A stretch of 64,000 nucleotides of DNA from Kofleriaceae bacterium (GTDB taxonomy: Bacteria > Myxococcota_A > Polyangia > Haliangiales > Haliangiaceae), in contig CBDCCZ010000060.1 in NCBI GenBank assembly GCA_965215005.1, positions 1 through 64,000 on the forward strand, in the 5' to 3' direction. Made by a program: the position numbers and the translations under genes. How positions within the stretch are numbered: the first letter of the stretch is position 1; each line of letters opens with the position of its first letter. Below are positions 28,846 to 37,090 of this stretch, piece after piece. Under the pieces are notes generated by a model. It did not search any database. It saw only the letters and a list, made by a program, of their open reading frames with translations, and was not told the origin of the DNA.

Positions 28846-28866
28846 GCGATGACTGGGAGGATGGGG

Positions 28867-29016
28867 ATGAACGAATCAGCAGCCAGCAGCTATGTTCACG
28901 TGTTCGACACCACGTTGCGCGATGGCGAACAGTCGCCTGGCGCAACCATGACCTCACGCGAGAAGCTCGAGGTAGCGCGGGCGCTCGCACGACTGGGCGT
29001 CGACGTCATCGAAGCG
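28867..29016 (+). pseudogene. leuA: Truncated 2-isopropylmalate synthase (N-terminal ~50 aa only)
   Basis: [25 protein letters not shown]...[19 protein letters not shown]. Similarity stops where GFP is expected; the frame runs on to a stop at 29235. Confidence 0.85.
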
Positions 29017-29077
29017 TTTGGCGACATCAAATCTACCAGCCGTTGCGGTTTGGGCGCTGGCGAGCTATCTGTTTCGA

Positions 29078-29374
29078 GTGACTCGTCGCGTCGTCTACAT
29101 CTGCAAAGGCTCCGACTGCAAAGAACGGCGAGCGGAGCGTGCGGCGGTGTGCAGCGCCGTCGAGCCAATCGCCAAGGTCGCAACGGTGGGTTGTCAAAAG
29201 ATCTGCAAAGGACCGGTGGTGGGCTGCATGATTAGCGATCGGCTGCAGTGGTTCAAAAAGGTCGATTCCCCAAAGGCCGTCCGCGCATTGGTCCACCTCC
29301 TCCAGGAGGGTGAGCTGGGCAAGGGTCTGCGCAAGCGCCTGGTGGAGAAGCGCGCTGGAAAGCTCCGCGAGTAG
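29078..29374 (+). CDS. Thioredoxin-like [2Fe-2S] ferredoxin domain protein
   Basis: VYICKGSDC...[12 protein letters not shown]ys pattern; GTG start assumed. Confidence 0.7.
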
Positions 29375-35826: not shown

Positions 35827-37062
35827 CTACTCGACGCTGCTCGAGCTCCGAAGCACCGGTTGTGACAAGTCGGGTTGGCTGGCCACGGTTGTGCTATTGC
35901 CGCCGCAGGCGATGGGGCCCGACTGCGGGCACATCTTGCCGTAGCGATTCTTGCGAACCTTGCGACAGTCTTCGGAGTTCAAGATGTTCCATAAGGCGAC
36001 TTTGCCGGGGCAGTCGCGACGGTTGCGTTTGCGCACCCGGTCCCACAGCATATCGACGAACATGCAACACTGTGGGCAGGCGGGGATGCCGCTCTCTTGA
36101 CCATTTTTCCCGATCCAATAGGCGTCCCAGCTCTTGATTCCGCACAGCGTGTCGTCGAGCTTCTTACTGGTATCGACGCGGCAGCGGTCGAGCACCTTGC
36201 GAAAGACCTGCTTCTCGGCGCAGTTGAGCATCGATACGGGCGCGCGTTTGTTCATCAGGCACTCCTTGACGTTGTCTGGGAGTGATGACCAGTCGCCGGT
36301 GGCGCCGCGGACGATCGACTCGAACATCGGCGGCCACGAGTATCGATTCAAGGTCTCGCCCTCGTTGCCGCGGCTGCACTGGGTGAGGGCGTCGAGCCCC
36401 GAGAGGCCCTCTTCCTCTACCGTGGTTCCGTCGAGGCACTGAACCTTCAAAGCCGACTTGGCTTGGAACTTCTTCCGTGGCGGCGGGAAGGGAGCCTCTG
36501 GCGGCTTTTCCTCATCGGGATCCGGCCGAGATTCTGTCGAGCCACGCGGCTGGCAGATCAACTCCGAAGCCGCGTATCCGACGACGAAGCCGACGCCGGC
36601 CGCAGCGGGAACGCCAACCGGCTGACAAATGAGAGCTCCAGGCCCCGTGGCCACGCACGATACGGCTGCGGTAGCGCCGCCAATCACCGCACCACCGGCA
36701 CCAGCTTTGAGGCGGCAAGAGATGACCTCCGCCTGGCGCTGGAAGTCGCGCCAGTTGAGAGCGACCTGCTGCTCTGGATCGCCACCGCCACCTCCGCCGC
36801 TAAGCCCTTCACCGCCGCCATAGAGTCCACCAGTGTTACTGGCTGCAACGCACATCTGGCTTGTCGTTAGCGGCCTGCTATTGTCTGAAGTGGCCTTCTC
36901 GACCTGCCACTCAGGCACCAACGACTGGATTGCGTGACCCGTTACCGTCTTGTGGTAGCCGAGATAGCCAACTCCAATGGCCATTCCAATCCCGGAGATG
37001 ACCAATGTGCTGACAGCGGTGGTGCCGCGGGTATTTCGCAGGAGATGTAGGAGGCTCTGCAC
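35827..37062 (-). CDS. Prepilin-like N-terminus + glycine zipper + putative deaminase-fold domain (candidate toxin)
   Basis: LLRNTRG|TTAVSTLVISGIGMAIGVGYLG; GAGGAVIGGATAA...AAAGVGFVVGYAA; NCAE (aa 280-283) and PACPQC (aa 327-332). Confidence 0.6.
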   Translation of the reverse strand: MQSLLHLLRNTRGTTAVSTLVISGIGMAIGVGYLGYHKTVTGHAIQSLVPEWQVEKATSDNSRPLTTSQMCVAASNTGGLYGGGEGLSGGGGGGDPEQQVALNWRDFQRQAEVISCRLKAGAGGAVIGGATAAVSCVATGPGALICQPVGVPAAAGVGFVVGYAASELICQPRGSTESRPDPDEEKPPEAPFPPPRKKFQAKSALKVQCLDGTTVEEEGLSGLDALTQCSRGNEGETLNRYSWPPMFESIVRGATGDWSSLPDNVKECLMNKRAPVSMLNCAEKQVFRKVLDRCRVDTSKKLDDTLCGIKSWDAYWIGKNGQESGIPACPQCCMFVDMLWDRVRKRNRRDCPGKVALWNILNSEDCRKVRKNRYGKMCPQSGPIACGGNSTTVASQPDLSQPVLRSSSSVE

Positions 37063-37074
37063 GTGGACGCGCTG

Positions 37075-37090
37075 AGCAGATCACGTGCCA
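37075..37090 (-). promoter_or_regulatory. Putative sigma54 -24/-12 promoter
   Basis: TGGCACGTGATCTGCT on minus strand, one mismatch from TGGCACG-N4-TTGCW; the C lies 14 nt before GTG 37062. Confidence 0.6.

What the first reader, a model, noticed from the sequence alone, without database searches (positions are those of the whole stretch)
35827..37090. Candidate Tad/Flp-pilin-fused toxin: prepilin leader + glycine zipper + deaminase-like domain under a sigma54-like promoter
Seen: the 411-aa ORF begins with a basic leader ending in G and a hydrophobic helix (LLRNTRG|TTAVSTLVISGIGMAIGVGYLG). This is the layout of type IVb/Flp prepilins, although the usual E5/Y6 are replaced by S/T. After a Gly linker comes a Gly/Ala zipper hairpin (aa ~119-170), a Pro/acidic linker, and a domain with GLSG, NCAE (C281, E283) and PACPQC (C329, C332). 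A near-consensus sigma54 motif sits at 37075-37090. Known: [H/C]xE...PCxxC is the Zn-binding and catalytic signature of nucleotide deaminases, including polymorphic-toxin deaminases. Myxococcus uses a Tad-like Kil apparatus for contact-dependent killing, and its pilA is sigma54-driven. Inference: a pilus-displayed or pilus-exported effector with export, membrane-translocation and nucleic-acid-damaging modules. No small immunity ORF follows (an 87-bp gap, then a kinase-TPR gene), which would fit an anti-prey or anti-eukaryote effector, or one kept inactive until export.
Basis: partly seen in the sequence, partly recalled or inferred. Interest (0 to 1): 0.8.

Follow-up and report, generated by a model that had tools for sequence, protein, structure and literature searches.

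The report
Pilin-fused polymorphic toxins for Tad pili
This gene joins a pilus-subunit-like front end to a predicted nucleic-acid-base deaminase, and its few relatives in myxobacteria carry the same front end on different, likely toxic back ends, so it is likely a weapon that a contact pilus would carry into other cells, a delivery route I did not find described.

Summary
The 411-aa ORF, its motifs and the sigma54-like site are real. Seven proteins share its front end (leader, G, hydrophobic helix, YH..TG..I..LVPEW) but end in five different back ends: deaminase-like (3), Ntox16-like, Ntox16-like plus GHSQG hydrolase-like, beta-rich, and hydrophobic-helix. Two lie at the end of syntenic Tad clusters with an FHA-fused ATPase, one of them in this genome. 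The front end aligns in register with Polyangia Flp pilins (HH probability 74%; 0 of 200 shuffles reach its score) but lacks E5/Y6. A model of aa 195-390 matches cytidine and blasticidin-S deaminases best (Z 5-6; the top 23 rows); E283 is invariant in 4 of 4. The GTG start lies where this genome's sigma54 sites place leaderless start codons. No immunity gene was found. Best reading (0.5): an E5-less pilin-toxin fusion, cut by the Tad peptidase and carried by a Kil-like pilus; export and disulfide locking would replace immunity. Processing, delivery and toxicity are untested, and a binding role or a membrane-anchored enzyme remain open. I found no paper on pilin-fused toxins; the scan's notes list only Flp-adhesin and TadG-hydrolase fusions on other DNA.

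The parts
37075..37090 (-). sigma54-type -24/-12 promoter motif TGGCAC-N5-CTGCT; the predicted start of transcription lies 2 nt before the GTG, i.e. a leaderless message (inferred)
   Evidence: same motif upstream of the L008 homologue and a similar one upstream of the L011 gene; RpoN in the genome
35827..37062 (-). 411-aa ORF (P0001), pilin-like front end plus deaminase-like payload; 18 Cys, all after aa 54
37024..37062 (-). aa 1-13, basic prepilin-like leader ending in RG
   Evidence: G-1 in 5 of 5 members aligned from DNA, RG in 4 of 5; RG also in P0008 and P0012; same xxRG| layout as the Tad pilins on contig C4
36901..37023 (-). aa 14-54, Flp-like alpha1 helix without E5/Y6, ending in the family signature G..[YF]H..TG..I..LVPEW.V
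   Evidence: continuous helix aa 15-48 in the model; 12 invariant positions in 7 of 7 rows; hhalign to 18 Flp-type N-termini, probability 73.6, score 27.0, shuffle maxima 13.9 and 15.7
36718..36900 (-). aa 55-115, linker with conserved C71 and a Gly run
36553..36717 (-). aa 116-170, Gly/Ala-rich hydrophobic module with four conserved Cys; candidate membrane-inserting segment (inferred)
   Evidence: Cys and Gly invariant in 4 of 4 rows, also in P0008; hydropathy; model pLDDT 44-62
36481..36552 (-). aa 171-194, Pro/acidic linker
35929..36480 (-). aa 195-378, predicted Zn-deaminase-fold payload with a helical insert between strand 2 and the CAE helix and two C-terminal helices
36214..36222 (-). 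C281-A282-E283: first predicted Zn ligand and predicted catalytic Glu
   Evidence: C and E invariant in 4 of 4; at the start of helix H88-99 of the model
36064..36084 (-). PACPQCC (aa 327-333): predicted Zn ligands C329 and C332, plus an extra invariant C333
35875..35907 (-). aa 386-396, C-x(5-8)-[VI]A-x-P 'clasp' that follows the payload in both deaminase-type and Ntox16-type members
   Evidence: found in 5 of 7 family members; alignment of P0007 with P0008
35740..35826 (.). 87-bp gap to the kinase-TPR gene; no immunity-like ORF
   Evidence: ORFs of 25 aa or more

Best explanation
The gene encodes a fusion of a Flp-like pilin helix and a predicted zinc deaminase, one of a small family with a shared front end and interchangeable back ends, and it is likely a toxin that the cell's Tad pilus would carry to another cell. 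Steps: (1) shown in sequence, not in RNA: a sigma54-type promoter with the GTG at the position typical of leaderless messages in this genome. (2) Inferred: Sec insertion leaves the leader inside and everything after aa 35 outside, and the A24 peptidase of the Tad cluster cuts after G13. (3) Inferred: the E5-less helix enters the Flp filament at or near the tip, where E5-less subunits sit in type 4 filaments. (4) Inferred: on contact the pilus brings the protein to the target, and the Gly/Cys module helps it through a membrane. (5) Predicted: in the reducing cytoplasm C281, C329 and C332 bind zinc and E283 deaminates cytosine in nucleic acid or in the nucleotide pool. Self-protection is likely by export and by disulfide locking of the zinc cysteines rather than by an immunity gene.
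For: Modularity: seven proteins share the core (12 invariant positions over aa 30-54; searches) with five back ends: deaminase-like (P0001, P0003, P0004), Ntox16-like (P0008, Pfam E 0.0047), the same domain plus a GHSQG hydrolase-like domain (P0007), beta-rich (P0011), and beta domain plus hydrophobic helices (P0012). The deaminase-like domain also occurs behind a different, lipoprotein-like front end (P0006). Tad link: P0007 is the last gene of a complete Tad cluster in this genome, and P0011 holds the same position in a syntenic cluster of a Polyangia genome from another family. The cluster's ATPase is FHA-fused, which PMC8460266 names as a Kil signature. Flp register. PMC10191384 (passage) says the tip complex is capped by a subunit lacking Glu5, and this cluster's TadG-like pilin lacks E5 too. 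Fold: top 5 of 48,161 chains are deaminases (best 3oj6, Z 5.9, rmsd 3.9, 92 aligned); top 23 of 997 are cytidine or blasticidin-S deaminases (Z 4.6-6.2); the ESM Atlas first hit is a cluster with 24% YwqJ-deaminase members (0.91, 178 of 256 features). Export: all Cys lie after the helix and the total is even in 7 of 7 members (18, 18, 18, 20, 14, 16, 8); three VKOR genes. No immunity ORF here or in L008.
Against: No E5 or Y6, and no Pfam, NCBIfam or solved-structure sequence match for P0001. A Flp HMM scores P0001 at only 0.6 bits and the best member, P0012, at 7.7 bits. The window's gene is not near the Tad cluster (contig C60 against C4), and neither is P0003 in the 12 kb held. Fold Z-scores are under 8, Foldseek found nothing (best E 0.09), the model's mean pLDDT is 62 on 4 sequences, and the structural matches begin near residue 20 of the targets, so helix 1 seems missing. 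The nearest solved folds are free-nucleoside deaminases; the DNA toxin DddB ranks 16th (Z 3.7). With three Cys on zinc, 15 Cys remain, an odd number, so the exported protein may have no zinc site at all. The Ntox16 match is below Pfam's cut-off (17.6 against 25 bits), and the other payloads have no family match. The family is rare: clear matches in 2 of 401 genomes of the class. The even-Cys count rests on about five independent architectures.
Confidence: 0.5

Rival explanations
1. Pilin-borne recognition or adhesion module: the protein is processed and sits on the Tad pilus, but its back end is a fully disulfide-bonded binding domain built on a deaminase scaffold, used like the variable Kil tip domains to grip or sense prey, not to poison it.
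For: 18 Cys, an even number, in all three deaminase-type members; helix 1 apparently missing and Z under 8; Kil tips expose variable, disulfide-rich domains without known catalytic activity (PMC12075869, parts 1-3 read); unchecked scan notes describe Flp-lectin fusions in other phyla; P0011's beta-rich end could be a binding domain.
Against: E283 is invariant in 4 of 4 homologues down to 29% identity, including one with a different front end. An adhesin has no reason to keep it. Other payloads resemble an RNase toxin family and a serine hydrolase.
Confidence: 0.2
2. Membrane-anchored periplasmic enzyme: the helix is an uncleaved signal anchor, and the domain deaminates free nucleosides or nucleoside antibiotics for feeding or detoxification.
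For: Closest solved folds are cytidine and blasticidin-S deaminases with three-Cys zinc sites; no E5; the gene stands alone under a sigma54 promoter, like several predicted lipoprotein genes of this genome; no immunity gene is needed.
Against: G-1 is kept in 5 of 5 DNA-aligned members; two members end Tad clusters; a housekeeping enzyme would not swap payloads with Ntox16-like and hydrophobic-helix domains; the rarity of the gene fits a conflict gene.
Confidence: 0.17
3. Toxin as in the best explanation, but exported by another type 4 filament system (type IVa pilus or type II secretion) after cleavage by the PilD-type peptidase, or released from the membrane without riding a pilus.
For: The genome has a second A24 peptidase (C3) and RG|F..E pilins on C11, C12 and C40; PilD cut both PilA and Flp1 of Bdellovibrio when expressed in E. 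coli (10.64898/2026.07.08.737194, passage).
Against: Gene position ties two members to Tad clusters; the helix matches Flp in register, including G17-x-G19 and, in P0004, P0012 and L011, G25.
Confidence: 0.13

Closest known systems
Kil (Tad-like) pilus of Myxococcus xanthus with KilP, adapters KilK/KilO and KilLMN tips (PMC8460266, PMC12075869)
   Same: Tad cluster with FHA-fused ATPase and FHA genes in a myxobacterium; pilin-type subunits that carry variable, disulfide-rich distal domains; dispersed pilin genes outside the main cluster.
   Different: Kil tips are TadE/F/G-type trimers whose distal domains have no known catalytic fold, and the toxins are unidentified (proposed to come from a needleless T3SS, or to be carried by Tip4). 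Here a single Flp-like helix is fused directly to enzyme-like payloads; the cluster has two CpaF-like ATPases; the only FHIPEP-family gene found in this genome (92.8% complete) is flagellar.
Polymorphic toxin systems (PMC3482391), including deaminase toxins of the YwqJ clade (PMC3239186, PMC13648612)
   Same: [quoted passage not shown]
   Different: The trafficking module is pilin-like; 'pilin', 'prepilin' and 'Flp' have 0 occurrences in the 300,000 of 357,715 characters held of PMC3482391. No immunity gene. No PF14431 match, no Gx[CH]xE, and ten extra cysteines. The payload seems inserted between the front module and a C-terminal Cys clasp rather than being the free C-terminus.
Tetrameric cytidine deaminases and blasticidin-S deaminase (PDB 3oj6, 1wn5, 3dmo, 7zob)
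   Same: Best structural matches (Z 5.7-6.2, 88-98 aligned); three-Cys zinc motif CxE...CxxC.
   Different: Those are cytoplasmic stand-alone enzymes with helix 1 and strands 4-5; identity is 12-19%; this domain has large inserts, likely disulfides and an export leader.
SitA lipoprotein toxins of myxobacteria (PMC5562445, PMC8546572; search listing and abstract starts only)
   Same: Myxobacterial envelope-sorted polymorphic toxins; P0006 carries this deaminase-like domain behind a lipoprotein-like signal.
   Different: SitA toxins pass by outer membrane exchange between kin and have immunity genes (abstracts; gene layout recalled); this family has a pilin-type leader and none.

Membership tests
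Flp/Tad (type IVc) prepilin | basic leader ending in Gly, followed by a hydrophobic helix | tested here: met
Flp/Tad (type IVc) prepilin | Glu at +5 (G|XXXXE, PMC12075869) and Tyr at +6 (recalled) | tested here: not met
   S5/T6 in P0001; Q5 in P0004, P0012 and L011; no E5 in any of 7. Hence filed as Flp-like, not as a Flp
Flp/Tad (type IVc) prepilin | short (50-80 aa), all-helical protein | tested here: not met
   411 aa; only aa 14-48 fits
Flp/Tad (type IVc) prepilin | profile similarity to Flp pilins | tested here: inconclusive
   hhalign probability 73.6, 0 of 200 shuffles reach the score, but no Pfam Flp hit and an HMM score near zero for P0001
Flp/Tad (type IVc) prepilin | cognate Tad machinery and peptidase in the genome | tested here: met
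   C4:224078-237119
Flp/Tad (type IVc) prepilin | cleavage by a prepilin peptidase and assembly into the filament | not testable with these tools
Zn-dependent deaminase superfamily | [H/C]xE at the start of helix 2 and CxxC at the start of helix 3 | tested here: met
   invariant in 4 of 4; helices H88-99 and H136-149 of the model
Zn-dependent deaminase superfamily | core fold (strands 1-3 with helices 2-3) | tested here: met
   top 5 of 48,161 and top 23 of 997 rows are deaminases, Z up to 6.2; modest Z, Foldseek blank
Zn-dependent deaminase superfamily | C281, C329 and C332 meet in one zinc site; catalytic activity | not testable with these tools
YwqJ-deaminase clade (PF14431) | match to the family profile | tested here: not met
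   only an ESM Atlas lead
YwqJ-deaminase clade (PF14431) | Gx[CH]xE in helix 2 (PMC3239186, Table 1) | tested here: not met
   LNCAE, LNCAE, INCGE, VACAE
YwqJ-deaminase clade (PF14431) | [quoted passage not shown] | tested here: met
   secondary structure of the model
YwqJ-deaminase clade (PF14431) | conserved His in the strand 2-helix 2 insert | tested here: inconclusive
   His in P0003 and P0004, Pro in P0001
Canonical polymorphic toxin system | shared N-terminal trafficking module with variable C-terminal domains | tested here: met
   7 proteins, 5 architectures
Canonical polymorphic toxin system | C-terminal domains of recognised toxin families | tested here: inconclusive
   Ntox16 below cut-off; deaminase by fold; hydrolase by motif and Atlas rows under 0.9
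Canonical polymorphic toxin system | adjacent immunity gene | tested here: not met
   none after P0001 or P0003. It works like such a system but is not filed as a canonical toxin-immunity pair
Canonical polymorphic toxin system | toxicity to a target cell | not testable with these tools
   needs experiment
Kil-like Tad system (cluster on C4) | ATPase fused to an N-terminal FHA domain; FHA-domain genes (PMC8460266) | tested here: met
   proteins 11 and 14
Kil-like Tad system (cluster on C4) | a single ATPase (PMC8460266) | tested here: not met
   two PF00437 ATPases in the cluster
Kil-like Tad system (cluster on C4) | partner needleless T3SS | tested here: inconclusive
   one FHIPEP match, in a flagellar cluster, in a 92.8% complete genome; G336 has two matches, not examined
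sigma54 promoter | GG and GC elements at -24/-12 spacing; RpoN present | tested here: met
sigma54 promoter | mapped, RpoN-dependent start site | not testable with these tools
   needs RNA from the organism

The most novel reading that the evidence does not exclude
Some myxobacteria arm their Tad pilus with self-contained pilin-toxin fusions: a prepilin leader and E5-less Flp helix serve as the trafficking domain of a polymorphic toxin family, the payload is swapped inside a disulfide clasp, and the zinc cysteines stay disulfide-locked until the target's cytoplasm reduces them, so no immunity gene is needed. This would be the first type 4 filament that polymerises its own toxins, and would name candidate effectors for Kil-type contact killing.
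Probability: 0.4. Interest if true: 0.88.

Novelty: new variant of a known kind. Interest (0 to 1): 0.72.

Why it matters
How Kil-type Tad pili kill is open: PMC12075869 ends by saying that Tip4 either binds an unknown toxin or is toxic itself, and the 2025 review PMC12428579 calls effector delivery hypothesised. A family in which a pilin helix is fused to recognisable enzyme payloads makes the idea 'the pilus carries the toxin' directly testable, and adds a trafficking route to the catalogue of polymorphic toxins. The deaminase is also of a sequence clade that no profile library held here recognises, which is of interest for base-editing enzymology. Limits: the family is rare, known only from uncultured genomes, and M. 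xanthus itself was not shown to have it.

Tried and rejected
No match for P0001 in Pfam, NCBIfam (71) or solved-structure sequences (48, profile A1, 0 at E 10); PADLOC gave one short E2 match at E 0.008 over aa 324-388, set aside as chance. Foldseek against PDB and BFVD gave nothing at E 0.001. A full-length homologue search returned only the protein itself. P0005 is a repeat-rich chance hit and was dropped. Weak genome rows (E above 1e-4) were not counted; ten were read out, on one strand only, and none showed the family signature there. No viral locus (130, 0 of 137 candidates). L009 (E 3e-5) showed no matching ORF and was dropped. hhalign of A1 with two YwqJ-like proteins was uninformative (probability 0.2; shallow alignments, N-terminal columns included). 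The fold search with the N-terminal model returned only generic helices (Z 3.5 or less). The downstream gene was rejected as immunity: it is a 1089-aa kinase-TPR protein. The gene upstream of P0007 was rejected as immunity: a gene occupies that slot in the other two clusters too, with or without a family gene behind it (7, 34, 94; homology judged by eye). The gene caller's start at M27 (P0002) was rejected: it removes a conserved leader, and the promoter spacing points to the GTG. For the Flp alignment 18 of the 28 rows were used; three false matches (L044, L063, L066) and seven near-duplicates were left out. Literature searches without a description of pilin-fused toxins; the library lacks most subscription papers. 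Supplements were not read; the pilin alignments in the supplement of PMC12075869 and the additional files of PMC3482391 could bear on the E5 and novelty claims. The genomic context of P0004, P0006, P0008 and P0012 could not be obtained.
Full report
Observation. The window is contig C60 of a 6.2-Mb genome, 92.8% complete. A genome of the same class carries the record title 'Polyangia bacterium', so the organism is a myxobacterium of that class. It lies between grpE and a 1089-aa kinase-TPR gene, with an 87-bp gap and no small ORF that could be an immunity gene. Its GC content (62%) is close to the window's (63%).

Promoter and start. TGGCAC-N-[CT]TGC[AT] occurs 34 times with a 5-nt spacer against 7-18 times with the nine other spacers. 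With the looser first half-site, 11 of 53 five-spacer sites have an ATG 12-13 nt after the motif, against 1 of 91 control sites; this gene's GTG is at 12 nt. By standard sigma54 geometry (recalled) that places the codon 2 nt after the start of transcription. RpoN is present. So the promoter is likely real and supports the GTG start, which matters because a public gene call starts at M27 and loses the leader. The three stand-alone family genes whose DNA I hold (window, L008, L011) all have such a motif upstream, and the two cluster-terminal genes do not.

The front end defines a family. A paralogue at C4:222189-224081 shares aa 12-71 at 59% identity. Searches found seven proteins in all, with 12 invariant positions in G..YH..TG..I..LVPEW.V across the 7 rows; P0012, found later, has FH and V at two of them. 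Back ends: the deaminase-like domain in P0001, P0003 and P0004 (42% and 35% identity); an Ntox16-like domain in P0008 (E 0.0047, below cut-off); that domain plus a GHSQG hydrolase-like domain in P0007; a beta-rich domain in P0011; and a beta domain with two hydrophobic helical segments in P0012. A relative of P0012 is split into two frames in L011. The deaminase-like domain also appears behind an unrelated, lipoprotein-like front end (P0006). In five members a C-x(5-8)-[VI]A-x-P motif follows the payload, and the front module has five cysteines, an odd number, so the payload looks inserted inside a disulfide clasp (pairing inferred). The family is rare: clear matches in 2 of 401 genomes of the class, and none outside this genome in 401 genomes of the phylum under a stricter first look with a less suitable model.

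Link to Tad. P0007 is the last gene of a cluster with two Flp-like pilins, an A24 peptidase, three TadE/G-like pilins (named by layout; no Pfam match), RcpC, secretin, FHA-ATPase, two T2SSF platform genes, an FHA gene, a TPR-like gene, a second ATPase and a predicted lipoprotein. P0011 holds the same last position in a syntenic cluster of a genome from another family. The FHA-fused ATPase is a Kil signature (PMC8460266, passages), although Kil has one ATPase. The family profile aligns without gaps, from the leader on, with 18 Flp-type N-termini of the class: probability 73.6, score 27.0, against maxima of 13.9 and 15.7 in 100 full and 100 block shuffles. The shuffles destroy the RG motif, so this shows 'prepilin-like' better than 'Flp'. 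E5 is absent in all members; three have Q5. PMC10191384 (passage) states that the tip complex of type 4 filaments is capped by a subunit lacking Glu5, and the TadG-like pilin of this cluster lacks it as well. The model gives one helix over aa 15-48, the length of a Flp alpha1 (mean pLDDT 53).

The payload. No sequence library recognises it. The AlphaFold2 model (4 sequences; mean pLDDT 62, with ten-residue means of 70-93 over the core strands and helices and 30-52 over the insert) has two strands, an insert, the CAE helix, a short helix, a third strand with a hairpin, the CxxC helix and two further helices. Foldseek found nothing. The wide structural search put deaminases at ranks 1-5 (best Z 5.9, rmsd 3.9, 92 aligned), and 29 of its 50 rows are deaminase-fold enzymes by title or by my recall of the name. 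The second look put cytidine or blasticidin-S deaminases at ranks 1-23 (Z 4.6-6.2). The Z-scores are modest, but the ranking is specific and agrees with the motifs. C281, E283, C329, C332 and C333 are invariant in 4 of 4. The inserts and the loss of strands 4-5 fit the YwqJ clade as tabulated in PMC3239186 (passages), and the Atlas lead points the same way. The Gx[CH]xE signature and the Pfam profile are not met, so I call it a new clade near YwqJ and CDA, not a YwqJ. YwqJ itself is an ssDNA cytidine deaminase toxin with an immunity gene (PMC13648612; abstract and section 5). I could not measure the zinc geometry. Helix 1 seems to be missing.

Cysteines and self-protection. All cysteines lie after the membrane helix, and the total is even in 7 of 7 members, as expected of exported, disulfide-bonded proteins; the genome has three VKOR genes. 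In the three deaminase members the total is 18. Three on zinc would leave an odd 15, so either one thiol is free or the exported form is fully oxidised and zinc-free. The second reading gives a simple reason for the missing immunity gene, but it also feeds the rival that the domain is only a binding scaffold. The invariant glutamate argues against that rival.

Mechanism and odds. Shown: promoter motif, leader and helix, modular family, Tad adjacency of two members, motifs, absence of an immunity ORF. Predicted: deaminase fold. Inferred: cleavage, tip assembly, membrane passage through the Gly/Cys module, reduction, deamination, killing. I put about 0.7 on processing and Tad carriage, 0.85 on a catalytically intact deaminase fold, and 0.5 on the whole chain. 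Rivals: pilus-borne binding domain 0.2, anchored nucleoside deaminase 0.17, other type 4 filament route 0.13. The target (prey bacterium, competitor or eukaryote) is not determined by anything here.

Comparison and novelty. In PMC12075869 (parts 1-3 of 13 and passages) the Kil pilus carries TadE/F/G-type tips, may penetrate prey, and has no identified toxin; 'deaminase' does not occur in its main text. In PMC3482391 (term search of the 300,000 characters held) 'pilin', 'prepilin' and 'Flp' do not occur. Six searches found no pilin-fused toxin. PMC10196010 (passages) reports Tad genes in some Polyangiales. Passages were also read in PMC13755416, PMC12754779, PMC12428579 and 10.64898/2026.07.08.737194. 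The scan's own notes hold no look-alike, but list Flp-adhesin and TadG-hydrolase fusions in other phyla (unchecked). Verdict: a new variant of a known kind, polymorphic effectors with a pilin-type trafficking domain; interest 0.72.

Noticed in passing
G000:C4:222189-237119 (L001:4190-19120, - strand): Complete Tad cluster with FHA-fused ATPase and a second ATPase, ending in family member P0007 (Ntox16-like plus GHSQG hydrolase-like domains, 20 Cys).
   Followed up: yes
L064:13-1650 (-), genome G006: A 546-aa Flp fusion (Q at +5, Pro/Thr linker, unknown domains, no LVPEW, no Pfam match) about 3.5 kb past a syntenic Tad cluster and beside an FHA-AAA+ activator gene: a second, independent kind of Flp fusion.
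   Followed up: partly
L049:1228-1638 (-), genome G086: Flp-like pilin followed by a low-complexity linker and a C-terminal membrane helix.
   Followed up: no
L011:1349-2300, genome G336: Family gene in two overlapping frames (63-aa front end, then the rest); P0012 is an intact relative. It follows a sigma54-activator gene.
   Followed up: partly
whole genome G000: Many sigma54-type sites have a start codon 12-13 nt after the motif (11 of 53 against 1 of 91), i.e. likely leaderless sigma54 messages, several for predicted lipoproteins. One search found no paper on this in myxobacteria beyond a sigmaA-type case.
   Followed up: partly
P0006 (no locus): The same CAE...CxxCC domain at the C-terminus of a 510-aa protein with a lipoprotein-like signal, possibly a SitA-like toxin.
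   Followed up: no
G000:C4:94060-125254: A large flagellar gene cluster with several flagellin-like genes in a myxobacterial genome (names by recall from the translations).
   Followed up: no
window 28849-29374: A leuA-like ORF breaks off after about 57 codons into unrelated sequence, overlapping a short Cys-rich ORF (names by recall).
   Followed up: no
G000:C50:771, 3851, 8973, 12052: The same 45-nt stretch recurs four times at multi-kb spacing on a 17-kb contig, inside long ORFs; probably a repetitive giant protein gene.
   Followed up: no
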